From Nitrososphaeraceae archaeon (lineage in GTDB: Archaea; Thermoproteota; Nitrososphaeria; Nitrososphaerales; Nitrososphaeraceae), in contig DATIFZ010000067.1 of the NCBI GenBank assembly GCA_035454925.1, positions 2,960-66,959 on the forward strand: a stretch of 64,000 bases of DNA. Reading direction: 5' to 3'. Positions 4,921 to 61,407 of this stretch are shown here, one piece after another (the first letter of the stretch is position 1; every line of letters starts with the position of its first letter). The position numbers and the translations under genes are program-made. The notes below the pieces were generated by a model. It made no database searches, was not told the origin of the DNA, and worked only from the letters and a program-made list of their open reading frames with translations.

Positions 4921-5547
4921 AACAATTTCTTTTTTGTCTTGTATTATTGATTTTACCAGCTTCATTCTAATTGCATTATAGATGTAGGAAATACCTTCAC
5001 CCTCAACTAATGTCTTTGCATCTCTGCCGCCAATTACTATCGGTGCAATCGTAACAATTAATTCATTGACAAGACCCAATTTTAAGACAGACCAGTTAAT
5101 TTCTCCTCCTCCCTCGACGAGTATCTTTTTGAGACCTAACTTTTCTAAATGTTGGAATAGATTTATGAAGTTCACTTTTTCTCTACCCATTACTAATACT
5201 TTTACACCTTTCTTTTCTATTTCTTTAATTTTCTTTAAAGAAGCATCATGAGTTACGGCCACGAATGTTTGAATTTTCTTTGATGATCTCATAATCCTAG
5301 AGTCTAATGGAATTCTTGCTTTTGAATCAATAATAATTCTTGCGGGATTCTTTACCGCTCTTGCATATCTTACATTTAACATAGGATCATCTTTCAAGAC
5401 AGTTGATATCCCAATCACTATACCATCTACAGTCGACCTTAACTTGTGGACACGTACCCAATCAATTTTAGAAGAAATTGACGAATCGTTTTTCCTAGTA
5501 GTAATCTTACCATCTATTGACATTGCTGCGTTTAGGATTACATACAA
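4900..5547 (-). CDS. arfC: 2,5-diamino-6-ribosylamino-4(3H)-pyrimidinone 5'-phosphate reductase (RibD C-terminal domain type)
   Basis: YVILNAAMSIDGKI start and ...LVEGGGEINWS motif of the RibD_C/DHFR-like reductase family. TTG start. Last gene of the riboflavin operon. Confidence 0.85.
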   Translation of the reverse strand: MYVILNAAMSIDGKITTRKNDSSISSKIDWVRVHKLRSTVDGIVIGISTVLKDDPMLNVRYARAVKNPARIIIDSKARIPLDSRIMRSSKKIQTFVAVTHDASLKKIKEIEKKGVKVLVMGREKVNFINLFQHLEKLGLKKILVEGGGEINWSVLKLGLVNELIVTIAPIVIGGRDAKTLVEGEGISYIYNAIRMKLVKSIIQDKKEIVLIYSLR

Positions 5548-6779
5548 CTAAATTCATCTCCATCAACAAATTTACCATTTATCATAACATTGAGAATGCA
5601 GTTTGCATTTGCTCTGTGTATTACGGAAACATGAGGGTCATGCATGGGTGAAATATCCAAATTGTTTTTGTCAATAAATATAATATCCGCTGCCTTGCCA
5701 GTCATTATGGCTCCAGAATTTATGCCGAGTATTTTTCCTCCGTTAATTGTGGCCATTTTCAAGATTTCTCTTGCTGGAATTGGCCGACCCGCTGATGTCC
5801 GGGACACTTTCCAGATATAATCTAATTCCCGAAACATGTCCGGAGAATTAATCATAATGTTGTCTGTACCAATACCAACACAACATCCTGAACTTAACAT
5901 CTTGGCAATTCTTGGTATTCCAACTCCAAGGGTACTGTTTGCTCTAGGACAAACAACAATTCCAATTTTTTTTCTAGCAACAAGTTCAATATCAACATCA
6001 GATGCATGTGTTAAATGAACAACAAAATTTGGCAAGAGGTTTGATACTATTCTTTGAACCTCGCTTTTACCTGTTACAGTAATTGATTTCTTTGTTGTTT
6101 CAAGTGATTCAGCAGCATGGATACCTATCAAAATTTTTTTTTCCAAAGAATTTTTATGTATTACTTTTTCATACTCAATCAATGAATTATCTGTGTTCTC
6201 ATTAGCTCCACTTATGCCCAACCCATCAGCTACGCCGGCAATCTGAAAAACAAGTTCTATTACATCTGGGGGCAATTTTGGATTTTTGACAAAATCTTTC
6301 GATATGTCATGGTAAAATTCTGGTCTGCCTAATACAATACCTTTTATTGATAATCCTGATATTGCTTCTTTAATTTGGTCTATTCCTTCAAGTCCGCCCT
6401 CCCTGAAATCTGCAAATGCAACCATGCCATTTCTCATCATGGACATTGCAGAACTTCTCATAAAGTTGACTAAATGCTTTCTTTCGCTATTTCGCAGGAT
6501 CTTATTTTTGATACCATAAATCGGATGGATCCTTGTTTCAAATGCTGAGTCAACTCCAATGTCCTTTCCAAAGGAATCACCAATGTGTGTATGAGCATTA
6601 ATAAATCCAGGAATAGCTAATATGCCTTCTCCATCATAAATTGCGCCGTACGTTCTTCCCTTATAATCTCCTGTGCCGACACTTTCTATTATTCCATTTT
6701 TGACTACTATATATCCATTATCAATGTATTCAAGATTTTCGCCTATGAATAGACTAATGTTCCTAATATTTAGTGCCAT
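5538..6779 (-). CDS. amidohydrolase-superfamily protein (COG0402 chlorohydrolase / aminopurine-pyrimidine deaminase-like)
   Basis: PGFINAHTHIGDS (HxH metal motif), HAAES, VVHLTH and GIGTDN motifs. Overlaps arfA and arfC by 10 nt each. Confidence 0.8.
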   Translation of the reverse strand: MALNIRNISLFIGENLEYIDNGYIVVKNGIIESVGTGDYKGRTYGAIYDGEGILAIPGFINAHTHIGDSFGKDIGVDSAFETRIHPIYGIKNKILRNSERKHLVNFMRSSAMSMMRNGMVAFADFREGGLEGIDQIKEAISGLSIKGIVLGRPEFYHDISKDFVKNPKLPPDVIELVFQIAGVADGLGISGANENTDNSLIEYEKVIHKNSLEKKILIGIHAAESLETTKKSITVTGKSEVQRIVSNLLPNFVVHLTHASDVDIELVARKKIGIVVCPRANSTLGVGIPRIAKMLSSGCCVGIGTDNIMINSPDMFRELDYIWKVSRTSAGRPIPAREILKMATINGGKILGINSGAIMTGKAADIIFIDKNNLDISPMHDPHVSVIHRANANCILNVMINGKFVDGDEFSCM

Positions 6780-7558
6780 TCTATTTCATAAACAGGTTGA
6801 AGTATACCTTTATCTCTAAGACTTCGGATTGTATCCAAGGCCTCTGTTGCAGCTTGTACTGCTTTTCTACCGGTAACAGCTCTACCTATCCCACAGTTTA
6901 GTTTGACATTTTGAGAGTCTTGGATTTTATTAATTATTTCGGTTACTTTCTCTTTAGAAACAGCATTAGAAATCACCATAAAGTTATCACCACCGAGAAA
7001 AAATGTCATGGATTTTTGTTCGATAAACATCTGAATAAGCTTTGAAAACACCTCCGTGACTCTTGCTGTAATTTCATATGGGGAGAGCATATTACTAACT
7101 TTGGTGGAATTATCTATATCGATGTGTAAAACTTGAGCAAACAAATCCATGGGTGATTTTACTGAATTATTATACATTAATTGAATTTGTTCACTTGCAT
7201 ATACCAATTTGCTATTTTTGACCAATGTGTTGTTTTTACGTGAATTGTGTGCTGCAATGTTTGCATCCAAAGGAGTTTTGCCTATTCCGATAGCCATTGA
7301 AATCTCAATACCCTTGTACATATTGTTAATTTCCTGTTCAATAAATAAGTGATCATTAATGGATAATCCGTTACTAATTGCAATTAGTTCATCAAATCTA
7401 TTAAAGTATAAGATACAATTCCTCTTAGTGAAAAGATCTTGCAAATCGCTATAGAAACTTGCTTGGAATATTTGTAATTGGGCCTCCCTATCGCTTCCCA
7501 ATTTTAATGTCCATGGACCATAACCCTCGATCTTTATTATGGTAATTTGAATGGTCAT
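6770..7558 (-). CDS. arfA: GTP cyclohydrolase III (archaeal riboflavin/F420 pathway)
   Basis: IQITIIKIEGYGPWT N-terminus, FNRFDELIAISNG, VLHIDIDN, FFLGGDNFMVISN and CGIG, all remembered from MJ0145-type ArfA. Confidence 0.85.
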   Translation of the reverse strand: MTIQITIIKIEGYGPWTLKLGSDREAQLQIFQASFYSDLQDLFTKRNCILYFNRFDELIAISNGLSINDHLFIEQEINNMYKGIEISMAIGIGKTPLDANIAAHNSRKNNTLVKNSKLVYASEQIQLMYNNSVKSPMDLFAQVLHIDIDNSTKVSNMLSPYEITARVTEVFSKLIQMFIEQKSMTFFLGGDNFMVISNAVSKEKVTEIINKIQDSQNVKLNCGIGRAVTGRKAVQAATEALDTIRSLRDKGILQPVYEIEWH

Positions 7559-7575
7559 TGTTGACTACCCTTGTC

Positions 7576-8004
7576 CTAATTGTCTTCGAATTCCAACAAT
7601 CTCGTTACCATTTTGTATGCAGCTTCGACTCCTCTCTTGGGAACAATTCTGGCTCTTTGCTTGGCCTGCTTTAGTGTCATATCAGGTCCCGTTATTCCGA
7701 GTGTGACTGGCTTTTGATACTTTAAAGCTAAATCAGAAAGTAATCTAGCGGTATTATTTGCTATAACGTGATCATGGCCTGTCTCTCCCTTTATGACTGC
7801 ACCTAAAGTGACTACCACATCAATTTGTTCTTTTTTCAATAGTTTTTCGACAACCAAAGGCATGTCAAATGTTCCAGGTACATGACATATTTTTACAATA
7901 TGCAAGTTTAACTTCTTTGCATGCGATATGGCTGTTTTAAGCATTTCATTAGTGATCTCTTTGTTAAACTCAGCTACGACTATACCTAACCTTATTTTAC
8001 TCAA
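7576..8004 (-). CDS. ribH: 6,7-dimethyl-8-ribityllumazine synthase
   Basis: RLGIVVAEFNKEIT...VPGTFDMP...VVTLGAVIKGETGHDHVI, the classic lumazine synthase pattern. Confidence 0.9.
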   Translation of the reverse strand: MSKIRLGIVVAEFNKEITNEMLKTAISHAKKLNLHIVKICHVPGTFDMPLVVEKLLKKEQIDVVVTLGAVIKGETGHDHVIANNTARLLSDLALKYQKPVTLGITGPDMTLKQAKQRARIVPKRGVEAAYKMVTRLLEFEDN

Positions 8005-8011
8005 AATATAT

Positions 8012-8701
8012 TCAATTCACATATGATTCTTTAATTTGAAGGGATTCGACCAAGGGGATATTAAATCTTGAAGAATATTCCATTGCTTTGTCAACTGTTA
8101 ATGCATCACCTGTCTCAGAGTCGAGCATTTCACAAATTACGGCCGATTGGACCATATTTGCCAATTTCATTAAATGGATAGATAATTCGGTATGACCAGA
8201 TCTTTCCTTAAGCAATTCGTTTGCAGCGATTAGTAAAGGTACATGGCCTGGAGATCGAAACTTCTCAAAAAACTCATTCCTACCATAATTATCTATATCA
8301 GAACATACTTCTGCCATTTTCATAATTGTAAGGGCTCTATCTTTATCTGTTACACCTGTAAAGGTATCCATATGGTTTATTGTAATTGAAAATGAAGGTC
8401 GATCACCGTAGGGGGCAATAGAACTTATCATTTTAGATAAGGATGAGTAATTCTTGGAAGCCAAATGAAGCAAATCATGCATAAATATCAAATTTAATTT
8501 TGATGCAATTTCGCCTGATATGGCCAAGCATATTAGTCCGCCCGCATCAATTCGCATTGTTGCTATATCACGTGCGTTAACATATTGAGCAGGTTTCACC
8601 ATATCAACCTCGTTTTCTCGAGATTCGCTATCATGAATCAAGACAAATTTCCCTTCCCTTAGGCTCCGTATAGCATCTTCAATTGATTTCACTGGTTTCA
8701 A
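8012..8701 (-). CDS. ribB: 3,4-dihydroxy-2-butanone 4-phosphate synthase
   Basis: RENEVDMV, GGLICLA, RSPGHVPLL, RSGHTELS motifs. Confidence 0.9.
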   Translation of the reverse strand: MKPVKSIEDAIRSLREGKFVLIHDSESRENEVDMVKPAQYVNARDIATMRIDAGGLICLAISGEIASKLNLIFMHDLLHLASKNYSSLSKMISSIAPYGDRPSFSITINHMDTFTGVTDKDRALTIMKMAEVCSDIDNYGRNEFFEKFRSPGHVPLLIAANELLKERSGHTELSIHLMKLANMVQSAVICEMLDSETGDALTVDKAMEYSSRFNIPLVESLQIKESYVN

Positions 8702-8745
8702 AACACTATCTACAATTAAAAAGGTTACTGTTTTTCTGGTAATAA

Positions 8746-9351
8746 CTAAGAATGTGGTAATAATTTTGTGACATACTTGCTTAAAATGTCTGCCTCAATA
8801 TTAACTTTATCTCCTTTTCGCTTATTTTTAAAAGTGGTAACGGCAAGTGTATGAGGGACCAAAGCAACTGAAAATCTTGTATCTGCGACATCAACAATGG
8901 TAAAGCTTATGCCATCTAGTGCAACAGAACCTTTTGGTACCAAATACTTTGATATCTCCTTGCTCATATTTATCCACATTTTGGTCTCAGAGGGAATCTT
9001 CCTGATATCTTCTATTTTTCCAACGCCATCTACGTGACCCAAGACAATATGCCCTTCAAGTCTATCGTTTATCCTCAAACTCCTTTCTAGGTTTACTTTA
9101 TCTCCAACTTTCAAGATTCCTAAAGCAGTTCGTTTCATGGTTTCTTTTACGACTTCAAAATACGCTACGCTTTTCAAAATCCGTGTTGCGGTGAGGCATG
9201 TTCCATTGACATTTACACTGTCACCTACTTCTAGACCCTTGCTCAGTTTTCCTAGATCTATTTCGATCCTATTGTCGGCGGCTTTATCATTGTCATCTAT
9301 TTTGACCATTGATTTGATAATTCCAGTACCTTCTACGATACCAGTGAACAT
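8746..9351 (-). CDS. ribE: riboflavin synthase (bacterial/eukaryotic-type two-barrel alpha chain)
   Basis: MFTGIVEGTG start, NGTCLT and DGISFT repeat motifs, GHIVLGHVDG. Confidence 0.9.
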   Translation of the reverse strand: MFTGIVEGTGIIKSMVKIDDNDKAADNRIEIDLGKLSKGLEVGDSVNVNGTCLTATRILKSVAYFEVVKETMKRTALGILKVGDKVNLERSLRINDRLEGHIVLGHVDGVGKIEDIRKIPSETKMWINMSKEISKYLVPKGSVALDGISFTIVDVADTRFSVALVPHTLAVTTFKNKRKGDKVNIEADILSKYVTKLLPHS

Positions 9352-38177: not shown

Positions 38178-38600
38178 ATGAAAGCTTCTGAACAAGGGGA
38201 ACTAGACTTATATAAAATAGACAACCAACATTCCCCAACAGGTTATGATGAATTGCTAATGAAAATTGATGATAAATCAATCGATGAACTGGATTTTGTA
38301 AAAAGAGGCGGATTAATCCCAGTTGTGGTTCAGGATATTACTACAAAGGACATTTTAATGCTGGCTTATGCAAATAGAATTGCAATAGAAAATACAGTCA
38401 AGACAGGCAATGCTTGGTTTTGGAGTGTTTCCCGAAATAAACTATGGATGAAAGGAGAAGAATCTGGAAATATTCAAGAAGTGAAGGATATCCTAGTTGA
38501 CTGTGATCAGGACTCGGTGATCTACCTAGTTAATTCAAAAAATCCTGCATGTCATACGGGAAACAGATCCTGTTTCCATAATAGGCTATACCCTCAATAA
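38178..38600 (+). CDS. hisI: phosphoribosyl-AMP cyclohydrolase
   Basis: GLIPVVVQD...LMLAYANRIA...WFWSVSRNKLWMKGEESGN...DCDQD...ACHTGNRSCF. Confidence 0.9.
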   Translation: MKASEQGELDLYKIDNQHSPTGYDELLMKIDDKSIDELDFVKRGGLIPVVVQDITTKDILMLAYANRIAIENTVKTGNAWFWSVSRNKLWMKGEESGNIQEVKDILVDCDQDSVIYLVNSKNPACHTGNRSCFHNRLYPQ

Positions 38601-38773
38601 ATTGATGATAGTTCTTACAATTGTGTAATATTTCTATCGATTTCTCGATTCTTAACATTTTTGATCTAATTCATATTTATTATTTATAAAATTTCCAATT
38701 AAAAAAATTAAGTAATACTAAAATTACGATTAGTGATATTTATTACTATACAATTGTTGATAGTTGAATATAC

Positions 38774-40000
38774 ATGGGTTCTATACGATTTCTAAAATGT
38801 AGGGAATGTGGTGCTGAATATACTCCGGTATTCAAATACATTTGTGAAGAGTGTTTCGGCCCACTGGATGTCATATATGATGTTCCTAAGGATTTAAACA
38901 GAGACACGTTTTCATCAAGAACCGATAAAACATATTGGCGTTATTTTGAGCTATTGCCAATTGCTGATAAGGATTGCATAGTAAACATCCATGCTGGTTA
39001 TACACCTTTGCAATATGCGGAAGAGTTGGGAACACAAATTGGAAACCTCAAGAATCTCTTTATAAAGAACGATTCTGTCAATCCAACTTTTTCATTCAAA
39101 GACAGACCTGCAGGTGTAGCCATTTCGAAATCAAGAGAAATCAAACTCAAGGCAGTTGGATGTGCGTCTACTGGAAATTTGGCTTCTGCAACAGCCGCTC
39201 ATGCTGCCAAGGCACATTTGCCATGTTTTATTTTTGCTCCTTTTGATATCGAAAAAGTCAAGATTGTGCAGGCATTATCCTATGGTGCTAAATTTGTTGC
39301 AGTTGAAGGTACCTATGACGACGCCAATAGAGTTGCGTCGATAATAGGTGATTCTAAGGGAATAGGGATTGTAAATATCAATATGAGACCATATTATGTA
39401 GAAGGGTCTAAAACATTGGCGTATGAGGTAGCTGAACAACTTAACTGGGATGTTCCAGATCATCTCATCATTCCCGTTGGTAGTGGTGCGATGTTGAATG
39501 CAATTTGCAAAGGATTTGAAGAGCTACATGATATAGGATTAATTGGCGATATCTCAAATCTAAAAGTTACTGCTGCACAACCACATGGTTGCGCTCCAAT
39601 AGTTGATGCATTTAAGAAAAATGCAAGCGATATTGTTCCTGTAGAAAGACCGGAGACAATAGCAAAGAGTTTGGCTATTGGGGATCCTGGAGATGGCGTT
39701 TATGTTCTAAAAAGATTAAAACAATACGGCGGGATTGCTGAAGAAGCAAATGATAATGAAATTATTGAAGGCATTTTGACTCTGGCGAAGACAGAAGGGA
39801 TTTTTACTGAACCTGCAGGAGGTGTTTCTGTTGCAGTACTGAAAAAGTTAGTTGACGATGGATTTATAGAAAGAAATGAAAAAGTAGTATGTTATGTTAC
39901 AGGTAATGGACTGAAATCTACTGAAGCAATTATGAGTGCATTGCCTAAACTTGATATTGTAAAGCCAGACGTACAAACTGTGTCTGCAATGATTTCATAG
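38774..40000 (+). CDS. thrC: threonine synthase-family PLP enzyme with N-terminal zinc ribbon
   Basis: CRECGAEY...CEECFGPLD ribbon, PLP-lysine motif NPTFSFKDRPA, ASTGN, GSGAM. Confidence 0.85.
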   Translation: MGSIRFLKCRECGAEYTPVFKYICEECFGPLDVIYDVPKDLNRDTFSSRTDKTYWRYFELLPIADKDCIVNIHAGYTPLQYAEELGTQIGNLKNLFIKNDSVNPTFSFKDRPAGVAISKSREIKLKAVGCASTGNLASATAAHAAKAHLPCFIFAPFDIEKVKIVQALSYGAKFVAVEGTYDDANRVASIIGDSKGIGIVNINMRPYYVEGSKTLAYEVAEQLNWDVPDHLIIPVGSGAMLNAICKGFEELHDIGLIGDISNLKVTAAQPHGCAPIVDAFKKNASDIVPVERPETIAKSLAIGDPGDGVYVLKRLKQYGGIAEEANDNEIIEGILTLAKTEGIFTEPAGGVSVAVLKKLVDDGFIERNEKVVCYVTGNGLKSTEAIMSALPKLDIVKPDVQTVSAMIS

Positions 40001-40014
40001 GAAGGAGTGATAGA

Positions 40015-41361
40015 ATGACAAATATTGAATTTATTATTCCATCTGTTCTCATAAAAGGTAGCGGAGAAAAAAAAATTCCATTAGATGCCATAGATCTGCA
40101 AGATGCATTTGCAAAGGTAACCGAACAGCTCGGAGAAGATTTCAAACGCAAAGTATTGGACCTGAATGGAAAACCAAGATCATTAATCAACATTTACATA
40201 AATGGAAAAAATATGCGATTTAGTAATGATGGTATGGCCACGAAACTAAACAAAGGAGATTCTATTTATATTCTCCCTGCAGTTGCAGGTGGTTCTGAAC
40301 TTAAGAACGAAGATTTGCAACGATACTCCCGACAGATAATGCTCGATGAAATAGGATTCAATGGGTTAGAAAAACTAAGGAAGGCAAAAATCTGTGTAGT
40401 TGGAGTTGGAGGCATTGGCAATCCTGTAGTTACACTGCTAACAGCTATGGGTGTCGGAAAATTGAAGATAGTAGATAGAGATATTATAGAAATCTCTAAT
40501 TTACATAGGCAGCATCTGTATACAGAAAATAATATAGGTAGTGTGAAAGTTGAAGCTGCAAAAGAACGACTTCAAAAAATCAATTCGAGTGTTGAGATTG
40601 AAGCTCTTCCGAATTCTGTTACTAAATATACTGCCGAAAGCATTGTTAATGGATGTGACATAGTTGTAGACGCACTAGATAGTATAGATGCCAGATATGC
40701 ATTAAATGATGCGTGCATTAAACTGAACATCCCACTTATCTACGCAGGCGCATTGGGAATGTTAGGTTCTATTTGCACTATTATTCCAAATAAAACAGCT
40801 TGCCTTAGATGCATCTTTCCGGCGTTAGCTGAAGATGATATGCCTACTTGTAGCACTGAAGGTGTTCACCCATCGATATTATACTTAGTAGGCGGTATTC
40901 AAGTTTCCGAGGTAGTCAAGATTATCCTAGGCGAAAAACCAACTCTAGAAAATAAACTCTTGTATATTGATCTGAACGATCTCTCAATGGAGAAAATTAC
41001 GGTCTTTAGACAAGAAGAATGTCCTTCATGTGGAACAAAAAGAATAGATAGAGATCAGCCGCAAGTACAGCAACTAATAATTGAAGAACTATGCGGTCGT
41101 GACCGCGGAAAAAGAACGTACACTGTTACACCCGCCCAAATTTCATCACCGATAGACCTCATTGGAATTGAAAAGAATGCGAGTAAATTGGGGTATACAA
41201 TCAAGACGAAAGGCGAACTAGGATTAACCGTCCTTAGTAATAATTCTGAATATCTTTCAATAAGCTTTATGACCAGTGGTGCGGCCACAATTGTTGGAGC
41301 TAAAAGCGAAGATGAGGTACTATCAATTTACAAGAGCTTTGTGAAAGACCACAATTCATAA
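40015..41361 (+). CDS. fusion protein: MoaD/ThiS-like beta-grasp (ends AVAGG at aa 89-93) + ThiF/MoeB E1-like adenylyltransferase + about 100-aa C-terminal domain
   Basis: aa 1-93 are MoaD-like (..GDSIYILPAVAGG). The E1 domain has YSRQIML, VVGVGGIGNPV, VDRDIIEISNLHRQ, CLRC (263-266), PTCSTEGV and CPSC (336-339). The C-terminal SGAATIVGAKSEDEV segment follows. Confidence 0.8.
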   Translation: MTNIEFIIPSVLIKGSGEKKIPLDAIDLQDAFAKVTEQLGEDFKRKVLDLNGKPRSLINIYINGKNMRFSNDGMATKLNKGDSIYILPAVAGGSELKNEDLQRYSRQIMLDEIGFNGLEKLRKAKICVVGVGGIGNPVVTLLTAMGVGKLKIVDRDIIEISNLHRQHLYTENNIGSVKVEAAKERLQKINSSVEIEALPNSVTKYTAESIVNGCDIVVDALDSIDARYALNDACIKLNIPLIYAGALGMLGSICTIIPNKTACLRCIFPALAEDDMPTCSTEGVHPSILYLVGGIQVSEVVKIILGEKPTLENKLLYIDLNDLSMEKITVFRQEECPSCGTKRIDRDQPQVQQLIIEELCGRDRGKRTYTVTPAQISSPIDLIGIEKNASKLGYTIKTKGELGLTVLSNNSEYLSISFMTSGAATIVGAKSEDEVLSIYKSFVKDHNS

Positions 41362-51131: not shown

Positions 51132-53255
51132 ATGGAGATAGAGGCGAGCCATGATCTAATAACTCAATCTGAAACTAAGCCTAGTGGCATTTTACAAGCA
51201 GCAAAAAGAGTTAGAATGATTTTCTCTGTTATGGCGAGTCCTAACAGAATCGATATTTTGCGAATCTTAAATTCAAAAGGACCTTTAACTTATTCTGAAT
51301 TAAAATCGTTAGCTGGTTTCAAATCTAAAAAGGAATCAGGTAAATTTGCTTACCATTTAAGGAAGCTCTTGAGGCAGTCACTTGTCGCATTAAATAAGGC
51401 GGAAAGGAGGTACACGATTACCAATCTCGGAAAACTTGTCCTGAGTCTGGCAAGACAAATTGAAGAGAGATCCATTATTGAAAGCGGCAAAATGTACGTG
51501 CGAACTTCTAGACATTCAATCGAAGAATTTAATTCTAATAGAATAACTCAATCATTGGTCCGGGAAGCCAACATGCCTCTTGAACAGGCGCATAAGATAA
51601 CTGAAGAAGTGGAAAACAAAGTTTACAAATTCCAAACGGTCTATCTTACTTCCTCTCTCATTAGAGAGACTGTCAATTCGATATTAATTGAGCATGGTTA
51701 TGAGGAATTCAGATCAAAACTAGCTAGACTAGGTCTTCCGGGCTCCGATATCTCTGAAATGTTTAACAATCCTTTATATAGCAAAAATGGTGTGGAAGGA
51801 ATTTTATCAGAAACATCTCTTGCAGTTTTTTCCGAAAATCTGCTATTCAACACGTTACCTAAGGATATAACTGATATGCATCTTGCCGGCGAACTAAATA
51901 TTTCAAACACCGGGCTTTGGAACTTGGTGCCTGACACCGTATTTATTGATACTCGCAATATCATTGAAAATGGTCTAGACTTTAAAGGAAAATACTTGAA
52001 TGTTTCAAGATTAAAGCCAATTCGGACACTTGATGACATTACAGAGGTTCTACCGGTATTGATTTCGGTCTTAAGCAGAGAAACTTCAAGGGAGATAATA
52101 CTTGATAATTTTGTTTCTAGCATTTCGAAGAGGATTCAGGAGAGTAGTGAATCAATAGAGGCTGCATTTTCTAGGGCATTTATATCATCATCCATTTCAA
52201 GGTCATTTTCATCTTCAGGTTTTCCAGTAGTTACTTTTCCTATCTATCTTGATGAAAGCTCGATAACCAGATCTATTTTGGTGGCCTACATGAAATATTT
52301 AGACCACACGCCTATTCCAACTATTGCGTTATCTCTTGTTGGTAAGGATCATGAGTCTCTAGGTACAAATTCGAATCTAATAGCTAGCATAGTCAAAAAT
52401 GGTGGAATTCTGTCCGCATCCAAGAACTTCAGAAGCCATATGGGGATTGTAAAAAATGCGGCTGACGAGAAAGCTAGTTCTATTGTAAGCTTGCAGTCCT
52501 TAGCAATAAATCTGCCAAGACTAGCCTATCAGTCAAATAAAGATGAAACCTATTTCAGAGCCAGATTAGCACTGATGATAAAGCCAGCTATTTCAGCTCT
52601 GTTGGCAAGAAAGAACTCCATACTGGAAATGATTCGAAGAGAAATGCTTCCTGTAGTGGCCAACATTACCCAAATGATGCAGTTAAGCAGGATGAATCTG
52701 GTAATTAACCTGACTGGAGTTAGGGAGTCGGTTTACAATATACTAGGACATGAATTTGACGGAGAAGAAATAATTCAAAAGGTATTACATACTGCTGTTG
52801 ATGTTGCTTCAGATCAAGGGAAACAATTTGGAGATGATTCCATAAGAATTGCTATGATCACAGATGACAGCAGTAATAGACTAGCTTCTTTAGACTCTGA
52901 AAAATATGGGAACATGTATCGACAAGCTGGTGATAAAATGATGATAAAGTCTTATTCACAAGGTCTTCTTGTAAACGGGCGAGATTTACTTGCAAATAGC
53001 GGTCCTATAATAGAATCAACTAACTCAATTGACGGATTACTGAATGGTGGCGTTTCTATCAATGTTGACACTAGTGATCTGGAGGATAACGAATTCATAG
53101 AGTCCGTTAACAAATCTTGCGGTTTCAATTTCTTCAGGCCAATATACAGGAACAAAATTTGTAGCTCGTGCGGCACCAAGATTTCTATGTCGTCCGAAGT
53201 TTGTAAAAGCTGCGGATCTACCAATTTTTCCAATATAATAATGCCGAATCAATAA
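51132..53255 (+). CDS. wHTH (ArsR-like) + ATP-cone + degenerate NrdD-like (class III RNR) body + C-terminal zinc ribbon; no glycyl-radical segment
   Basis: The wHTH reads SPNRIDILRILNSKGPLTYSELK..FAYHLRKL..RYTITNLG. The ATP-cone reads MYVRTSRHSIEEFNSNRITQSL...LTSSLIRETVNSILIEHGY. NrdD-like landmarks are MHLAGELNISN, ENGLDFKG...LKPIRTLDDI and LQSLAINLPRLAY. The ribbon is CSSCG...CKSCG, and the protein ends 14 aa after it. Confidence 0.7.
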   Translation: MEIEASHDLITQSETKPSGILQAAKRVRMIFSVMASPNRIDILRILNSKGPLTYSELKSLAGFKSKKESGKFAYHLRKLLRQSLVALNKAERRYTITNLGKLVLSLARQIEERSIIESGKMYVRTSRHSIEEFNSNRITQSLVREANMPLEQAHKITEEVENKVYKFQTVYLTSSLIRETVNSILIEHGYEEFRSKLARLGLPGSDISEMFNNPLYSKNGVEGILSETSLAVFSENLLFNTLPKDITDMHLAGELNISNTGLWNLVPDTVFIDTRNIIENGLDFKGKYLNVSRLKPIRTLDDITEVLPVLISVLSRETSREIILDNFVSSISKRIQESSESIEAAFSRAFISSSISRSFSSSGFPVVTFPIYLDESSITRSILVAYMKYLDHTPIPTIALSLVGKDHESLGTNSNLIASIVKNGGILSASKNFRSHMGIVKNAADEKASSIVSLQSLAINLPRLAYQSNKDETYFRARLALMIKPAISALLARKNSILEMIRREMLPVVANITQMMQLSRMNLVINLTGVRESVYNILGHEFDGEEIIQKVLHTAVDVASDQGKQFGDDSIRIAMITDDSSNRLASLDSEKYGNMYRQAGDKMMIKSYSQGLLVNGRDLLANSGPIIESTNSIDGLLNGGVSINVDTSDLEDNEFIESVNKSCGFNFFRPIYRNKICSSCGTKISMSSEVCKSCGSTNFSNIIMPNQ

Positions 53256-53326: not shown

Positions 53327-56050
53327 ATGGCAAAGGAAATTACCGAAATTGATGATTCTTCGCACGCAAATAAAAAAGCTATCGCGCAAATTAGGAAGAG
53401 GGACAAAGGACTAGTTGATTTTAATAATTCAAAGATTTCTAATGCCATCTACAAAGCGTTAATGGCAGCAGGTAAAACAGATTACAAGCTTGCTGAAAGA
53501 TTATCAGAAAAAGTTGTCCAAAAAATGGATCAACAATTTTCTATTTTAGATACCAACCGAATTCCGAGTGTAGAAGATGTCCAGGATATGGTTGAATCAA
53601 TCTTGATTGAAGAAGGACTATCAGAAACTGCAAAGGCATATATTCTATACAGACATGAACGCCGCAAGGTTAGAGATGAAAAGAAGAAAATTCTAAATAA
53701 GAAGGATTTGGACGAAGTTGATAAGTCATTTGACATTAATTCTCTACGAGTGCTAGCTTCACGCTACTTGTTAAGAGATAACAATAATGATATAATAGAA
53801 GATCCTAAATTGCTTTTTGAACGGGTCGCAATTCTCGTAACAATCCCCGATATACTGCATGATGCAGAATTGTATTCAAATAGTGAAGTAGTAGTTCAAA
53901 ATATTACTGAAGCTGAAGAATATTACAAAAAAATTGATGATTTTCACATGAAACTAAAAATTGGCAATCACTATCTTAACCGATTTCATTTTGAATCAAT
54001 GATTAGGCATTACATTAACTTGGCAAAAAGTGGACGTATGAAAGTTAGCTTTAAGGACCTTTTGCGACTTATTGCCGAGGGGCGCCTGTCGAAGTACTCT
54101 GATAGAATTATTGAATATAATAATCTGATGGTTACAAAGGACTTTTTACCAAACACTCCAACTCTTATGAATGCTGGAGCAAAACTTGGCCAGCTGTCAG
54201 CATGTTTTGTATTGGATATGAAAGACGACATGACGGAGATTATGAAATCTTCCACTGACGCAGCAATGATTTTCAAATCTGGAGGAGGAGTTGGAATTAA
54301 TTACTCAAAACTTCGTCCCGAAGGTGATATCGTAGCATCAACCTCTGGTGTTGCTTCGGGACCGATCTCGTTCATGAGAATCATAGACACAATTACTGAT
54401 GTAGTAAAACAGGGCGGAAAAAGAAGGGGAGCAAACATGGGAATCATGGAATCATGGCATCCGGATATTGAAAAGTTCGTGACCGCCAAAACTAAGCCAG
54501 GCATATTCGAGAACTTTAACGTAAGCGTTGGAATTTGGAGTGATTTCTGGGAATCGATAATTAATGAAAATAATCATCGATACACACTGAAGAATCCTAC
54601 TACCAATGAACCCGTCAAGCAAATTGACTCACATCAGCTCTTGGATTTAATTACTTTTAGTGCATGGAAAAGTGCAGAGCCAGGCGTTATATTCTTTGAT
54701 AATATCAATAAATATAATCCGTGTATCAACGTAAAGGAAGGACCACTTAGAGCAACAAATCCCTGTGGGGAGCAATCATTATACCCATATGAGTCATGCA
54801 ATTTAGGATCCATCAATTTAGCAAACTTTGTGAAGCGTAATATAGATGGAAAGTATGAATTTGATTGGCAACGTTACGAGCAAGCAATACGTCTTTCGAC
54901 CCGATTTTTGGATAATGTAATAGACATGAACAAATATCCGGTTGAAGAAATCGAACATAATACACAGTTAACAAGGAGAATCGGACTAGGAATAATGGGT
55001 ATTGCTGATCTCCTATTTACTTTAGAGATACCATACAATTCGAAAGAAGGTTACGAGTTTATGAACAGAGTAGCTGAAGCACTTTCTTATTATAGCATGG
55101 AAGAAAGCGTTGCGATTGCAAAAGCAAGAGGCGCATTTCCATTATTCAACCAGACTGATTATGTTGAAGGAAAAATGATACCAGTGGCTGGATACTATGA
55201 AATTCCAAAACGATACCATTCTTATGACTGGGATTCATTAGTTGAGAAGATTGGTAAATATGGAATCAGAAACTCATGGACTACTACAATCGCACCTACC
55301 GGAACATTGTCTATGATAGCTGACACTTCGAACGGAGTCGAACCAGTTTTTGCACTAGTTTTCGAAAAACGGGTCACCGTAGGAAGATTCTTTTACACAA
55401 ATAGAATATTTGAAAATATGCTTAAAGAAAATGGCTTGTATAATGATGAAATTTTAACGAAAATTGCAAATAACTATGGTTCTGTGAGAGGATTGGCAGA
55501 AATCCCAGAAAGGCTACAGAAAATATTTGTAACAGCCATTGATGTGCATTGGACGGATCATCTTATGGCACAAGCAATTTGGCAAAAATGGATTAGCAAC
55601 GCAATAGCAAAAACTATTAACATGCCGTCTGATGTCACGGTCGAAGATATCAAGGCTGCCTATCTATTGTCTCATGAAATGGGATTGAAGGGCGTTACGG
55701 TCTACAGAGATGGCTCTAGGCATGAACAGGTGCTACATATAACTGGAAATGACAAAGAGAAAAAATTCATTGTAAAGCCAAGCTCTCATGTGGTTGACCA
55801 TATTCATAGTAACATTAAGCAAGATTATGTGATGAGCCAGGTTGAAAAAGTGTTTAGAGATACAGAAGAAATAGAGGCAACTGAAACCACAGTAAATGTA
55901 TCTCAATCCAAGCTGAAAATGAACATGAATGCACTGCCTAATGACTATCAGGAGCACGAAACGTGTCCGTCATGTAATGCAAGGCTGATAATAACTGAAG
56001 GCTGCAATATGTGCATTGAATGTGGATTTAGCTCTTGTATGTCAGGTTAA
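53327..56050 (+). CDS. nrdJ: adenosylcobalamin-dependent ribonucleotide reductase (class II) with N-terminal ATP-cone and C-terminal zinc ribbon
   Basis: ATP-cone (IRKRDKGLVDFNNSKISNAIYKA), PTLMNAG, SACFVL, NPCGEQSLYPYESCNLGSINL, TIAPTGT, C-terminal CPSC...CNMCIEC. Confidence 0.92.
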   Translation: MAKEITEIDDSSHANKKAIAQIRKRDKGLVDFNNSKISNAIYKALMAAGKTDYKLAERLSEKVVQKMDQQFSILDTNRIPSVEDVQDMVESILIEEGLSETAKAYILYRHERRKVRDEKKKILNKKDLDEVDKSFDINSLRVLASRYLLRDNNNDIIEDPKLLFERVAILVTIPDILHDAELYSNSEVVVQNITEAEEYYKKIDDFHMKLKIGNHYLNRFHFESMIRHYINLAKSGRMKVSFKDLLRLIAEGRLSKYSDRIIEYNNLMVTKDFLPNTPTLMNAGAKLGQLSACFVLDMKDDMTEIMKSSTDAAMIFKSGGGVGINYSKLRPEGDIVASTSGVASGPISFMRIIDTITDVVKQGGKRRGANMGIMESWHPDIEKFVTAKTKPGIFENFNVSVGIWSDFWESIINENNHRYTLKNPTTNEPVKQIDSHQLLDLITFSAWKSAEPGVIFFDNINKYNPCINVKEGPLRATNPCGEQSLYPYESCNLGSINLANFVKRNIDGKYEFDWQRYEQAIRLSTRFLDNVIDMNKYPVEEIEHNTQLTRRIGLGIMGIADLLFTLEIPYNSKEGYEFMNRVAEALSYYSMEESVAIAKARGAFPLFNQTDYVEGKMIPVAGYYEIPKRYHSYDWDSLVEKIGKYGIRNSWTTTIAPTGTLSMIADTSNGVEPVFALVFEKRVTVGRFFYTNRIFENMLKENGLYNDEILTKIANNYGSVRGLAEIPERLQKIFVTAIDVHWTDHLMAQAIWQKWISNAIAKTINMPSDVTVEDIKAAYLLSHEMGLKGVTVYRDGSRHEQVLHITGNDKEKKFIVKPSSHVVDHIHSNIKQDYVMSQVEKVFRDTEEIEATETTVNVSQSKLKMNMNALPNDYQEHETCPSCNARLIITEGCNMCIECGFSSCMSG

Positions 56051-59071: not shown

Positions 59072-59986
59072 TTAATTGATATACGTTAACCATTTCTCAA
59101 ATTTTTCATTCTTGCCGTGGACTATTTGATTGTAAACATCCTGCAGCCGCGTTGCTATTTTCCCAGTTTTTCCATCAGCAATTTTAATATTGTCAATTTC
59201 ACCTATTGATTTAATTCCAGCTGCTGTTCCAGTTAGGAAGACCTCATCTGCGTTATACAATTCATCACGAGATATGTCGCTGATTTGGAAGTCAATGCCC
59301 AAATCTTCTGCAATTTCCAGTACGCTGGATCTTGTAATCCCGTCCAATGCACCTGATGTTAATGGTGGTGTTACCAGGATTTTATTTTTTACCATAAAAA
59401 TATTTTCGGCAGTTCCTTCTACAACCATACCCCTCATATTCAACATTATCGCCTCATCTGCTCCTGATTTTATTGCTTCTATCCGTGCTAATGCCGAATT
59501 TGCATAATTTGCCGCGGCCTTCGCATGAATAGGTAAACTTCTGGAATCTATTCTGATCCACGATGAAACGATAACTCTTATTCCTGCGTTGTTTTTTGTT
59601 TTTATATGATCTTCCCAGTCCCATATAGCGACGGATGTTGATACTTTATTGGGTAAGGGATTTACTCCCATCTTTCCATATCCATAGTAACAAATGGGTC
59701 GTATATAACAATCCTTTACACCATTTATTTTTATAGTTTGGATAATAGCCTCTCTAATCTCTTTCTCCGAAAATTCCAAATTCATATGATACATTTTGCA
59801 ACTATTCGTTAGTCTCTTGAGATGTTCTTCTAGTCGAAAAATTGCAGGACCTTTCTTTGTGTGGTAACAACGGATTCCTTCGAATACGGACGTTCCATAG
59901 TGCAATGCATGAGTTAGAACATGTATTTTTGCATTATTCCAACTAACAAATTTACCATCCATCCAAATCTTATTTTTATCATTCAT
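59072..59986 (-). CDS. ilvE: branched-chain amino acid aminotransferase (fold type IV)
   Basis: IWMDGKFVSW..AKIHVLTHALHYGTSVFEGIRCY, EGTAENIF, and typical length. Confidence 0.9.
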   Translation of the reverse strand: MNDKNKIWMDGKFVSWNNAKIHVLTHALHYGTSVFEGIRCYHTKKGPAIFRLEEHLKRLTNSCKMYHMNLEFSEKEIREAIIQTIKINGVKDCYIRPICYYGYGKMGVNPLPNKVSTSVAIWDWEDHIKTKNNAGIRVIVSSWIRIDSRSLPIHAKAAANYANSALARIEAIKSGADEAIMLNMRGMVVEGTAENIFMVKNKILVTPPLTSGALDGITRSSVLEIAEDLGIDFQISDISRDELYNADEVFLTGTAAGIKSIGEIDNIKIADGKTGKIATRLQDVYNQIVHGKNEKFEKWLTYIN

Positions 59987-61407
59987 TAAAATTCATCTCT
60001 ATCAATTCTGTTTCTCTTATCATGAATTGCCCTGATTGCATCTGCGACCTTAGTATCGTCTACAATAATCAGTATACGAGAAGTTTCCTCTTGGGCGTCC
60101 AAATTCAATATATTAATTCCATGTTCTCCAACCGTGCTGCTTGTAGTAGAGGCAATTTTGGGCTTTTTCCACATATTATCTCCAATTAAAGTAACAACAC
60201 CTCTATCATATACTATTTCGGTCTTAGAATAGTATGCCCTAAAATGATGTTCGTTACGACGAACGTAGTCTCCATCAAGAAATAAGATTCGAGTGATTTC
60301 AATTCCTTCTTTCTTATAGGGAGATAATTTAAGAAAGTCATGATATTGCTTATCACTTTCAAGTGATGCCAATAGGTGTGATGCTGCAATACTTTCCATA
60401 CGAACTATGGCACAGTTTCTCTTACCAGTAACAATCTTAACAAGGTTACCTGCTTGATCGGCGGAGGTTTTTGATATTGTTGTTGTGTTAGATGGATTAT
60501 TCATATTAGTGATTACAATTGGTATATCCATATTGTTATTGTCGATTTCCTTAATTGCCAGAGGATCGAGAATCTTCATACCAAACATGCCAGCCAATCT
60601 TGCCTCATTATAAGACAAAAATTTGATATTGTCTAACTCCTTTTTTACTATTTTTGGATCTGCACTCAATACAGCATTGTCTTTTTCAAAATCCAATTCT
60701 GCCTTGTAATTTTCGTTCAACAATATGGCAACATCAGCAGCGGATCTATCAGAACCTCCTCTCTCATAAGTTGTTTCTAATCCGTCGATAGTTTTACCTA
60801 TGAAACCCCCTATAGTTACTACATTATTTTTTTCAATTAATTGATAGAAATGCTCAGATCTTGCCCTAGATTCATCTATCAAAAAATTAGCAGCTTCAAA
60901 ATTATCATCCGTTATTATTGGCCATCGTTCTAATTCTACATGAGCCGACCTAATGTTCTTACTTTTTAAAACATAGTCCATTAAATATGACATAGGTATC
61001 TCGCCGCTATATGCGAGAGTTCTTGATCTAGTAACATCAACAAATCTGCGATTTTCTGCCGCTTGTTTGAGAGATACAATTACTTCTTTGTGAAACTTAT
61101 TGATTTCATCAGAAAATTTTTTGTGATACTCCTCAGTAAGGTTACTTGATGCAATGTTTTCATACACATCGCGTAGTACATCAATTTCAATTGGATTGGA
61201 TTGTGCATAATTCTTTCCAATGTGAATTGCTATATCCGTCATTGAGCTTAGTTTGTCTCTGTATCTAATTAGGGGTGCAGAAAAAACGGCAACCACTTTA
61301 CTTCGCTTTTTTATCTTTTCGTTTATTCTCTCGATTATTTTGTCGATGCACGCACCATCCTCTCCTAGGGTGCTACCTCCAAACTTCATTATTGTAACCG
61401 GTCCCAA
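59986..61407 (-). CDS. aspartate kinase (AAK domain + ACT domains)
   Basis: MKFGGSTLG, ERGGSDRSAADVA, C-terminal ACT-like VTLIGDNM...INILNL. The stop overlaps the ilvE start (TAATG). Confidence 0.85.
   Translation of the reverse strand: MGPVTIMKFGGSTLGEDGACIDKIIERINEKIKKRSKVVAVFSAPLIRYRDKLSSMTDIAIHIGKNYAQSNPIEIDVLRDVYENIASSNLTEEYHKKFSDEINKFHKEVIVSLKQAAENRRFVDVTRSRTLAYSGEIPMSYLMDYVLKSKNIRSAHVELERWPIITDDNFEAANFLIDESRARSEHFYQLIEKNNVVTIGGFIGKTIDGLETTYERGGSDRSAADVAILLNENYKAELDFEKDNAVLSADPKIVKKELDNIKFLSYNEARLAGMFGMKILDPLAIKEIDNNNMDIPIVITNMNNPSNTTTISKTSADQAGNLVKIVTGKRNCAIVRMESIAASHLLASLESDKQYHDFLKLSPYKKEGIEITRILFLDGDYVRRNEHHFRAYYSKTEIVYDRGVVTLIGDNMWKKPKIASTTSSTVGEHGINILNLDAQEETSRILIIVDDTKVADAIRAIHDKRNRIDRDEF

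What the first reader, a model, noticed from the sequence alone, without database searches (positions are those of the whole stretch)
38774..41361. ThrC-type PLP enzyme operonically linked to a ubiquitin-like/E1 fusion: possible protein-thiocarboxylate-dependent amino-acid sulfur chemistry
The threonine-synthase-family gene has a zinc ribbon, the PLP motif FSFKDRPA and ASTGN. It ends 14 nt before a gene encoding a MoaD/ThiS-like beta-grasp fused to a ThiF/MoeB-type adenylyltransferase. Established precedents pair a sulfur-carrier protein thiocarboxylate with a PLP beta/gamma-replacement enzyme: CysO/CysM in Mycobacterium tuberculosis and HcyS/MetY in Wolinella. As I recall, there is also a ThrC-homologue/sulfur-carrier pair making homocysteine from O-phosphohomoserine in Streptomyces. 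ThrC homologues also catalyse replacement chemistry, for example cysteate synthase in methanogens. The tight linkage raises the possibility that this ThrC-like enzyme uses an E1-activated thiocarboxylate to make homocysteine or cysteine rather than, or in addition to, threonine. Aspartate kinase is also in the window (59986-61407) but is not adjacent.
Basis: partly seen in the sequence, partly recalled or inferred. Interest (0 to 1): 0.8.

Follow-up and report, generated by a model that had tools for sequence, protein, structure and literature searches.

The report
Carrier-protein-dependent homocysteine synthesis operon
A soil ammonia-oxidising archaeon carries a two-gene operon that most likely makes homocysteine, the precursor of methionine, by passing sulfur from a small ubiquitin-like carrier protein to a threonine-synthase look-alike; here the carrier is unusually made as one polypeptide with the enzyme that activates it.

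Summary
A 408-aa ThrC-family PLP enzyme (38774-40000) lies 14 nt, with a Shine-Dalgarno-like site, upstream of a 448-aa ThiS/MoaD-like domain fused to a ThiF-type E1 (40015-41361).

The ThrC-like protein is only 36-38% identical to biochemically canonical threonine synthases, which are about 60% identical to each other. It lacks their STGNTS, NSVNPxR and GNAGN motifs.

It falls in a separate clade with three kinds of context:
- Archaeal members are followed at once by a free-standing ThiS ending in GG (9 of 9 proteins examined), often with ThiF, homoserine kinase or homoserine dehydrogenase.
- Bacterial members sit behind SAM riboswitches (3 of 3).
- A canonical-motif control sits in a thrB-thrC-hom operon with no ThiS.

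This is the signature of the MetM/MetO pathway described in Streptomyces in 2024.

The window's carrier domain and E1 align end to end with the separate ThiS and ThiF of those clusters. The carrier's best solved relative is CysO. Nitrososphaera viennensis has another thrC at a different locus.

New here: the carrier is fused to its E1, with an invariant internal GG that must be cleaved; the E1 tail is TBP-like instead of rhodanese; and there is a conserved upstream palindrome. Biochemistry is untested.

The parts
38708..38751 (+). Conserved upstream element: near-palindrome TTAAGTAATACTAAA (38708-38722), then TTAGTGA, then a TATA-like ATTTATTAC, 25-65 nt before the start codon. Candidate operator and promoter of the operon.
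   Evidence: Conserved in 19 diverse Nitrososphaeraceae loci while the rest of the hisI-thrC spacer does not align. A degenerate form occurs in 55/74 loci 20-90 nt before the gene and nowhere else in 1.22 Mb. One exact copy in the window. No Rfam match.
38774..40000 (+). ThrC-fold PLP enzyme of the MetM-like clade (408 aa): the proposed O-phosphohomoserine plus carrier-thiocarboxylate homocysteine synthase.
38798..38851 (+). N-terminal four-cysteine zinc ribbon (aa 9-26, CxxC...CxxC-FGPL). Shared with the clade but also with some canonical-motif ThrCs, so it is not diagnostic.
   Evidence: Alignment. Tree labels (P0181, P0205 and P0177 have the ribbon plus canonical motifs).
39083..39112 (+). 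PLP-lysine motif PTFSFKDRPA (aa 104-113). Canonical ThrC has PTGSFKDRG.
40001..40014 (+). 14-nt spacer with a Shine-Dalgarno-like GGAG, so the two genes are read as one transcript.
   Evidence: In locus L060 the E1 start overlaps the thrC stop.
40015..40293 (+). ThiS/MoaD-type beta-grasp sulfur-carrier domain (aa 1-93) ending in an invariant ILPAVAGG. It is the equivalent of MetO/CysO.
   Evidence: Pfam ThiS. End-to-end alignment with free-standing ThiS of ThrC-like clusters, 33-45% identity, E 1e-16 to 1e-23. Best PDB hit is CysO 3dwg_C, E 8e-9. GG is invariant in 81 sequences.
40294..40323 (+). Variable linker (aa 94-103) between the GG and the E1 RYSRQ helix. This is the proposed cleavage site after Gly93.
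   Evidence: Length varies, with 0-9 residue inserts, and only 1 of 10 positions is invariant.
40324..41034 (+). ThiF/MoeB-type adenylating E1 core (aa 104-340) with a nucleotide-binding GxGxxG, two CxxC zinc pairs (C263/C266, C336/C339) and invariant Cys279 at the position of ThiF's conserved loop cysteine.
   Evidence: Pfam ThiF E 6e-77. PDB ThiF 1zfn E 2e-43 and MoeB 1jw9 E 3e-36. Cysteine conservation.
41035..41361 (+). E1 C-terminal extension (aa 341-448 plus stop): invariant Cys360 (ELCGR) followed by a single TBP-like alpha/beta domain. It stands where MoeZ and Uba4 carry a rhodanese domain.
   Evidence: Also present in the separate ThiF of L081 and L089. Profile hits archaeal TBPs at E 4e-5. 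Pfam TBP E 0.015, below cutoff. Low-confidence models give beta-alpha-beta4-alpha topology, and TBPs are the top Foldseek hits.

Best explanation
The two genes form an operon for protein-thiocarboxylate-dependent homocysteine synthesis of the MetM/MetO type, in a Nitrososphaeraceae ammonia oxidiser.

Proposed steps:
1. Inferred: the second gene is translated as a carrier-E1 precursor. A peptidase encoded elsewhere, most likely of the JAMM/Mec type, cuts after Gly93. This frees a 93-aa carrier with a C-terminal Gly-Gly and a 355-aa E1.
2. Inferred from family chemistry: the ThiF-type E1 adenylates the carrier's C-terminal glycine with ATP. Sulfur is then transferred to give carrier-COSH. The sulfur donor is unknown because there is no rhodanese domain. 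Invariant Cys279 and Cys360 are candidate relay residues.
3. Inferred by homology to MetM, and to CysM/CysO chemistry: the ThrC-like PLP enzyme eliminates phosphate from O-phosphohomoserine and adds the carrier thiocarboxylate at C-gamma. After an acyl shift and hydrolysis, homocysteine is released and the carrier is regenerated.

Shown here: the gene anatomy, clade membership, conserved linkage, regulatory and pathway context in relatives, and the fusion's origin from adjacent ThiS and ThiF genes.

Not shown: any enzymatic step, the cleavage, and the sulfur source.
For: 1. Not a canonical ThrC. The protein is 36-38% identical to Aquifex, B. subtilis and M. tuberculosis ThrC, which are 60-61% identical to each other. 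It is 43-58% identical to the linked clade. Its motifs are STGNLA / NINMRPYYVEGSKT / GSGAML / IAKSLAIGDP, against canonical STGNTS / NSVNPxRxEGQKT / GNAGN / IATAIxIGNP.

2. NJ tree of 117 sequences. The window groups with the Bathyarchaeia/Nezhaarchaeales family at 96% bootstrap. The clade including the SAM-riboswitch proteins has 66%.

3. Context of clade members. ThiS lies immediately downstream in 9 of 9 non-actinobacterial proteins examined (10 loci: L081-L084, L087-L089, L092-L094). ThiF is in the cluster in L081 and L089. Homoserine kinase is present in L089 and L094, and homoserine dehydrogenase in L084, L092 and L094. A sulfate-assimilation cluster lies upstream in L081. Prok-JAB lies nearby in L087 and L088.

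4. SAM riboswitch RF00162 (69-73 bits, cutoff 44) lies directly upstream in Micromonospora, Actinoplanes and a bacterial metagenome contig; the last also has ThiS downstream. S. albulus metM also has a SAM riboswitch (PMC12172450).

5. Negative control. A zinc-ribbon ThrC with canonical motifs sits in thrB-thrC-hom-ask with no ThiS.

6. Origin of the fusion. It equals ThiS plus ThiF of these clusters, aligned end to end. GG is invariant and the carrier domain is as conserved as the E1 core in 81 sequences.

7. The carrier domain is closest to CysO (E 8e-9), against SAMP1 at 3e-4 and MoaD at 1e-3.

8. Some free-standing carriers in the clade also carry tails after GG (L092, L093 and L082), so post-GG processing is normal for this family. 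GapMind lists Mec as needed for MetO maturation.

9. N. viennensis has a thrC1 at another locus, plus thrB, hom and sat.
Against: - No enzyme assay or genetics exists for any archaeal member.
- The S. albulus MetM sequence itself could not be obtained, so orthology to the characterised enzyme rests on SAM-riboswitch-linked actinobacterial proxies and on matching identity levels (35% against the reported 33% to B. subtilis ThrC).
- The protein passes NCBI's thrC equivalog cutoff.
- No JAMM/Mec, ThiI, TusA or rhodanese gene lies in the window or within 10 kb in 80 relatives, so the cleavage and the sulfur donor are unaccounted for.
- Within the family hisI is as syntenic as the E1, so local synteny alone proves little.
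- A second thrC was shown only by annotation in N. viennensis, not in this genome.
- The 66% bootstrap for the wider clade comes from a simple NJ tree.
Confidence: 0.7

Rival explanations
1. Ordinary housekeeping genes that happen to be neighbours: a true threonine synthase next to a MoaD-MoeB fusion that serves molybdenum-cofactor synthesis and/or tRNA thiolation.
For: TIGR00260 thrC scores 291 bits, above its cutoff, and every database name is 'threonine synthase'. The fusion has been catalogued as MoaD-MoeB in 61/98 Thaumarchaeota assemblies (PMC11237513). The E1 core is equally similar to ThiF, MoeB and UbaA models. The unrelated hisI is as syntenic as the E1 within the family.
Against: Linkage of this ThrC clade to ThiS persists across archaeal phyla and into bacteria where all other neighbours differ. 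SAM riboswitches mark the bacterial members as methionine genes. The canonical motifs are missing. The carrier is closest to CysO, not MoaD. No Moco, thiazole or tRNA-thiolation gene lies in the 64-kb window. No E1 equivalog model reaches its cutoff. A separate thrC1 exists in N. viennensis.
Confidence: 0.1
2. The chemistry is the same but the product differs. The ThrC-like enzyme uses O-phosphoserine and the carrier thiocarboxylate to make cysteine (like CysM/CysO), or makes another sulfur amino acid such as cysteate.
For: ThrC homologs include cysteate synthase, which uses O-phosphoserine. The carrier's best solved relative is CysO of the M. tuberculosis cysteine pathway. One relative (L081) sits beside sulfate-assimilation genes and a CysK-like PALP gene. 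A ThiS-PALP fusion lies nearby in L082.
Against: Relatives are linked to homoserine kinase and homoserine dehydrogenase, not to serine-pathway genes. Bacterial members are under SAM, not cysteine, control. The cysteate synthase model scores 72 bits against a cutoff of 325. CysM is a CysK-family enzyme, not ThrC-like.
Confidence: 0.08
3. The enzyme is bifunctional. It makes threonine when no thiocarboxylate is available and homocysteine when it is, serving both branches from O-phosphohomoserine.
For: A cyanobacterial MetM homolog showed weak threonine formation and threonine deaminase side activities in vitro (PMC12172450). The presence of a second thrC was not verified in this genome.
Against: The residues that differ from canonical ThrC lie in the STGNT, NPxR and GNAGN loops. 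From my recollection of the Thermus thermophilus structures, these hold the phosphate needed for water addition. N. viennensis expresses a separate thrC1.
Confidence: 0.1

Closest known systems
MetM/MetO (with Mec and MoeZ) homocysteine pathway of Streptomyces albulus (Hasebe et al. 2024, as cited)
   Same: A ThrC-homologous PLP enzyme is paired with a ThiS/MoaD-type carrier ending in GG that needs an E1 and C-terminal processing. The substrate pool is O-phosphohomoserine. Bacterial members of the same clade carry the SAM riboswitch reported for metM.
   Different: The carrier is translated fused to its E1. The E1 has a TBP-like C-terminal domain instead of MoeZ's rhodanese. There is no riboswitch; a conserved DNA palindrome sits upstream instead. 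No Mec/JAMM gene is nearby. The host is an archaeon. Identity to actinobacterial proxies is only 43%.
CysM/CysO/Mec/MoeZ cysteine pathway of Mycobacterium tuberculosis
   Same: A carrier thiocarboxylate is the sulfur donor to a PLP replacement enzyme acting on an O-phospho amino acid. The window's carrier domain is most similar to CysO.
   Different: CysM belongs to the CysK family, not the ThrC family. It uses O-phosphoserine and makes cysteine. The carrier and E1 are separate proteins.
Canonical threonine synthase (class I: Aquifex, B. subtilis, M. tuberculosis, T. thermophilus)
   Same: Same fold and PLP-lysine motif, the same likely substrate, and it passes TIGR00260.
   Different: 36-38% identity. 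The STGNTS, NSVNPxR and GNAGN motifs are replaced. It is never found in a thrB-thrC-hom context and is always linked to a sulfur carrier.
MoaD-MoeB (molybdopterin synthase sulfuration) and ThiS-ThiF (thiazole)
   Same: A beta-grasp carrier with GG plus a ThiF-fold adenylating enzyme with zinc CxxC pairs.
   Different: No MoaE, ThiG or other pathway genes nearby. The carrier is closer to CysO. The partner gene is a PLP enzyme.
HcyS/HcyF/HcyD/MetY of Wolinella succinogenes
   Same: Homocysteine is made from a carrier thiocarboxylate, and the carrier is made as a precursor that a metalloprotease trims (from my own knowledge, not checked here).
   Different: The PLP enzyme there is MetY (O-acetylhomoserine sulfhydrylase, Cys/Met-metabolism fold), not a ThrC homolog.

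Membership tests
MetM/MetO-type homocysteine synthesis | PLP enzyme of the ThrC fold that groups with MetM rather than with canonical ThrC | tested here: inconclusive
   It groups with ThiS-linked and SAM-riboswitch-linked proteins and away from PDB ThrCs. The S. albulus MetM sequence itself was not available, and support for the wider clade is 66%.
MetM/MetO-type homocysteine synthesis | Adjacent ThiS/MoaD-type sulfur carrier with a Gly-Gly at the carrier's end | tested here: met
   The carrier domain (aa 1-93) ends in an invariant AVAGG and aligns end to end with free-standing ThiS of related clusters. Here the GG is internal to a fusion.
MetM/MetO-type homocysteine synthesis | E1 that adenylates and sulfurates the carrier (MoeZ, with a rhodanese domain) | tested here: inconclusive
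   A ThiF-type E1 is present and fused. There is no rhodanese domain; the tail is TBP-like. The MoeZ model scores 151 bits against a cutoff of 647.
MetM/MetO-type homocysteine synthesis | JAMM/Mec hydrolase for carrier maturation and product release | tested here: not met
   None in the window or within 10 kb in 80 relatives. Prok-JAB genes lie near the cluster in L087 and L088. A genome-wide search was not possible.
MetM/MetO-type homocysteine synthesis | Methionine-pathway regulation or context | tested here: met
   SAM riboswitches precede 3 of 3 bacterial clade members. Homoserine kinase or dehydrogenase is in the cluster in 4 archaeal loci. In the window itself there is only a conserved palindrome of unknown regulator.
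MetM/MetO-type homocysteine synthesis | Homocysteine formation from O-phosphohomoserine plus carrier thiocarboxylate | not testable with these tools
   Needs enzymology or genetics.
Canonical threonine synthase (TIGR00260) | Score above the curated model cutoff | tested here: met
   291.2 bits against 167.1. GapMind notes that MetM is often misannotated as ThrC.
Canonical threonine synthase (TIGR00260) | Conserved active-site loops STGNT(S), NSVNPxR and GNAGN, shared by the solved class I enzymes | tested here: not met
   The window has STGNLA, NINMRPYY and GSGAML.
Canonical threonine synthase (TIGR00260) | It is the genome's threonine synthase (single copy, thr-operon context) | tested here: inconclusive
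   N. viennensis annotation has thrC1 at a different locus. This genome could not be searched. The context here is hisI upstream and the E1 downstream, not thrB or hom.
MoaD-MoeB / ThiS-ThiF / SAMP-UbaA | E1 reaches an equivalog cutoff, or the carrier is closest to MoaD, ThiS or SAMP | tested here: not met
   MoeB 222 bits against 449, ThiF 218 against 275, UbaA 207 against 450. Carrier: CysO 8e-9, against SAMP1 3e-4, MoaD 1e-3 and no ThiS hit.
MoaD-MoeB / ThiS-ThiF / SAMP-UbaA | Pathway partners nearby (MoaE/MoaA/MoaC, ThiG/ThiH, NcsA) | tested here: not met
   None among the 63 ORFs of at least 110 aa in the window.
Cysteate synthase (TIGR03844) | Score above the model cutoff | tested here: not met
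   71.7 bits against 324.9.

The most novel reading that the evidence does not exclude
In ammonia-oxidising archaea, all homocysteine, and hence methionine and SAM, is made through this protein-thiocarboxylate route. Its carrier is synthesised as an N-terminal fusion to its own activating enzyme and must be released by cleavage after an invariant Gly-Gly. That would be a prokaryotic counterpart of ubiquitin-fusion precursors in which the fusion partner is the E1 itself. A TBP-like domain would replace rhodanese in sulfur delivery, and a dedicated DNA operator would replace the SAM riboswitch.
Probability: 0.3. Interest if true: 0.72.

Novelty: new variant of a known kind. Interest (0 to 1): 0.6.

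Why it matters
Ammonia-oxidising archaea are among the most abundant microbes in soil and ocean. Their route to homocysteine is not spelled out in the papers I could read.

If this operon is that route:
- 'Threonine synthase' and 'MoaD-MoeB' annotations across Nitrososphaerota and many other archaea are wrong, and metabolic models need correcting.
- It would extend a pathway described only in 2024 in Streptomyces to several archaeal phyla.
- It would provide a natural carrier-E1 precursor for studying how ubiquitin-like proteins are matured in prokaryotes.
- The conserved upstream palindrome gives a handle on sulfur and methionine regulation in an organism with no known riboswitches.

Tried and rejected
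- The Hasebe et al. 2024 paper (by DOI and PMC id) and Kerou et al. 2016 are not held. MetM facts are therefore second-hand.
- The first homolog search returned only relatives at 78% identity or more, which was useless for phylogeny. The representative search was needed.
- The one genome-contig scan returned only Nitrososphaeraceae, so Nitrosopumilales and other orders were never sampled.
- Within-family synteny was rejected as evidence once hisI proved equally conserved.
- The zinc ribbon was rejected as a marker of the clade, because canonical-motif ThrCs also have it.
- Long ThrC-like representatives turned out to be fused to PadR or LeuA_dimer domains, not to carriers.
Single-sequence models were poor, with pLDDT 32 and 54, and are used only for the topology of the C-terminal domain.
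- N. viennensis supplementary tables are truncated. thrC2, moeB and the met genes could not be confirmed or excluded.
- No riboswitch or other Rfam family is present in the window.
- No JAMM, ThiI, TusA, ThrB or CysK-like gene lies near the pair in 80 relatives.
- Literature searches for homocysteine synthesis in Thaumarchaeota gave nothing specific.
Full report
**What is there**

The window has about 35% G+C. Its closest relatives are soil Nitrososphaeraceae, which are ammonia-oxidising archaea.

- ORF 38774-40000 (+) encodes 408 aa. ORF 40015-41361 (+) encodes 448 aa.
- They are separated by 14 nt holding a Shine-Dalgarno-like GGAG.
- The next gene downstream is on the other strand, so the pair is a two-gene unit.
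- Gene 1 is a PALP-fold enzyme (E 2e-68). It passes NCBI's thrC model at 291 bits against a cutoff of 167. It is far below the cysteate synthase model, at 72 bits against 325.
- Gene 2 has a ThiS domain (aa 32-93), a ThiF domain (aa 104-337) and about 110 further residues.
- The carrier's Gly-Gly is at aa 92-93 and is followed directly by the E1.

**Is the linkage conserved?**

A scan of one genome per species with the E1 fusion gave 80 loci, all Nitrososphaeraceae, at 67-96% identity.

- The ThrC-like gene lies directly upstream in 79 of the 79 loci that contain upstream DNA.
- As a control I mapped the other neighbours. hisI upstream is just as conserved (73/80), while the downstream genes are kept in only about half.
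- Within-family synteny alone is therefore weak evidence, and I looked further afield.

**Where the ThrC-like protein belongs**

An exhaustive search of cluster representatives gave the nearest families.

- One family is 55% identical and comes from Bathyarchaeia, Nezhaarchaeales and allies.
- Others are 43-46% identical, from Thermoplasmatota, Euryarchaeota and Micromonosporaceae.
- Pairwise identities split cleanly into two groups. Solved canonical ThrCs from Aquifex, Bacillus and Mycobacterium, plus two zinc-ribbon representatives, are 49-61% identical to each other. The window protein is 36-38% identical to them and 43-58% identical to the other group.
- The split coincides with active-site motifs. 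The window group has STGNLA, N[IV]NxRP[YF]YxEGSKT, [GA]SGxxL and IAKSLxIGDP. The canonical group has STGNTS, NSVNPxRxEGQKT, GNAGN and IATAIxIGNP.
- A bootstrapped NJ tree (117 sequences, 344 columns, 60 replicates) joins the window to the Bathyarchaeial family at 96%. It places both in a 45-leaf clade at 66% with the actinobacterial proteins. The canonical ThrCs lie outside.
- The N-terminal zinc ribbon is not diagnostic, because canonical-motif proteins also have it.

**What the clade does, judged from context**

- In nine of nine non-actinobacterial clade members examined (ten loci), a 92-114 aa ThiS gene follows the ThrC-like gene at once, often overlapping it.
- L081 continues with ThiF and ThiI, and sits behind PAPS reductase, ATP sulfurylase, sulfite reductase and TusA.
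- L089 reads ThrC-like, ThiS, homoserine kinase, small ORF, ThiF.
- L094 reads ThrC-like, ThiS, homoserine dehydrogenase, homoserine kinase.
- L084 and L092 carry homoserine dehydrogenase. L087 and L088 have a Prok-JAB gene a few kb away.
- In Micromonospora, Actinoplanes and a bacterial metagenome contig, a SAM riboswitch (69-73 bits, cutoff 44) lies directly in front of the gene. The metagenome contig also has ThiS behind it.
- As a negative control, a canonical-motif zinc-ribbon ThrC sits in thrB-thrC-hom-ask-ilvD with no ThiS.

This combination matches what is reported for metM/metO of Streptomyces albulus. There a ThrC homolog makes homocysteine from O-phosphohomoserine and MetO thiocarboxylate. 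MoeZ is the activating enzyme and Mec matures the carrier. A SAM riboswitch sits upstream, and MetM is 'often misannotated' as threonine synthase. MetM is reported to be 33% identical to B. subtilis ThrC. My Micromonospora proxy is 35% identical.

**The fusion**

- The window's aa 1-93 align end to end with the free-standing ThiS proteins of these clusters (33-45% identity, E 1e-16 to 1e-23) and stop exactly at their C-terminal GG.
- Residues 94-448 align end to end with the L081 ThiF, at 41% over 352 residues including the C-terminal extension.
- The fusion therefore arose by joining the adjacent carrier and E1 genes of a MetM-type cluster.
- In 81 fused sequences ILPAVAGG is invariant.
- The carrier domain is about as conserved as the E1 core.
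- The linker varies in length.
- A carrier can be adenylated only at a free carboxylate, so cleavage after Gly93 is required for the proposed function.
- Such processing seems normal in this family. The carriers in L092, L093 and L082 have 27-, 16- and 1-residue tails after GG.
- The best solved relative of the carrier domain is M. tuberculosis CysO (3dwg_C, E 8e-9, full length). SAMP1 scores 3e-4, MoaD 1e-3, and ThiS gives no hit.
- No E1 equivalog model (MoeB, ThiF, UbaA, MoeZ) reaches its cutoff.
- This speaks against the catalogued reading of the fusion as MoaD-MoeB for molybdenum cofactor. So does the absence of any Moco, thiazole or tRNA-thiolation gene in the 64 kb.

**A second thrC**

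N. viennensis tables list thrC1 = NVIE_004780 beside trpE and ilvD, and it is detected in the proteome. hisI is NVIE_020580. Exactly two genes separate hisI from NVIE_020610, which fits the hisI, ThrC-like, E1 order seen in all Nitrososphaera loci. thrB, hom and sat are also present. The tables are truncated, so the second paralog's name and the presence of other met genes could not be read.

**Mechanism and confidence**

I put 0.7 on a MetM/MetO-type homocysteine operon with a carrier-E1 precursor.

- Shown: the anatomy, clade, context and origin of the fusion.
- Inferred: the cleavage, adenylation, sulfur transfer and gamma-replacement.
- Weak points: no JAMM/Mec or sulfur-donor gene nearby, no rhodanese domain, no direct comparison with the characterised MetM, and no sampling of Nitrosopumilales.

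**Rivals**

- Canonical ThrC plus Moco or tRNA E1: 0.1.
- Cysteine or another product: 0.08.
- Bifunctional ThrC/MetM: 0.1.

**Novelty**

The kind of system is known since 2024. The variant features here are:
- an archaeal host;
- a carrier fused to its own E1;
- a TBP-like E1 tail in place of rhodanese;
- a conserved palindromic DNA element in place of the riboswitch.

Noticed in passing
window 41092-41349 (E1 aa ~360-445); also L081:7534-8649 and L089:6745-7800: The C-terminal domain of this ThiF subfamily looks like a single TATA-binding-protein repeat, with the motif F..SG....V.GAK[SD]E. The profile hits archaeal TBPs at E 4e-5. Pfam TBP gives E 0.015. Low-confidence models have beta-alpha-beta4-alpha topology, and TBPs are the top Foldseek hits at E about 0.05. 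An invariant Cys (ELCGR, aa 360) precedes it. Its role is unknown.
   Followed up: partly
window 38708-38751: A conserved near-palindrome TTAAGTAATACTAAA, then TTAGTGA and a TATA-like box, lies upstream of the operon. A degenerate form is found in 55/74 relatives at the same place and nowhere else in 1.22 Mb. It is a possible operator for a methionine or sulfur regulator.
   Followed up: partly
L082:10150-11772 and L083:10168-11790 (Nezhaarchaeales): A 540-aa protein fuses a ThiS domain (…AVSGG, then SEVE…) to a CysK-like PALP enzyme, a few kb from the ThrC-like/ThiS pair. This is a second kind of carrier fusion with an internal GG, possibly a CysO-CysM-type fusion.
   Followed up: no
proteins P0150, P0171, P0231 (about 490-500 aa) and P0147, P0157, P0175 (about 615-625 aa): Some zinc-ribbon ThrC-family proteins carry a C-terminal PadR DNA-binding domain or a LeuA allosteric (LeuA_dimer) domain. 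Their function is unknown.
   Followed up: no
L092:7260-7604, L093:7432-7758: Free-standing carriers next to ThrC-like genes have 27- and 16-residue tails after the GG (GGCE…, GGHCGQ…). They are therefore made as precursors that need trimming.
   Followed up: partly
window 4900-9351 (- strand): A riboflavin biosynthesis cluster: RibD C-terminal reductase, an amidohydrolase, GTP cyclohydrolase III, lumazine synthase, DHBP synthase and riboflavin synthase.
   Followed up: no
window 51132-53255 (+) and 53327-56050 (+): A 707-aa protein combines an N-terminal winged-helix/HTH domain, an ATP-cone and an NrdD-like region. It lies directly upstream of a 907-aa ribonucleotide reductase with ATP-cone. 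This is an unusual pairing.
   Followed up: no
window 38178-38600 (+): hisI (phosphoribosyl-AMP cyclohydrolase) is kept immediately upstream of the operon in 73/80 relatives, with no evident functional link. It served as a synteny control.
   Followed up: yes
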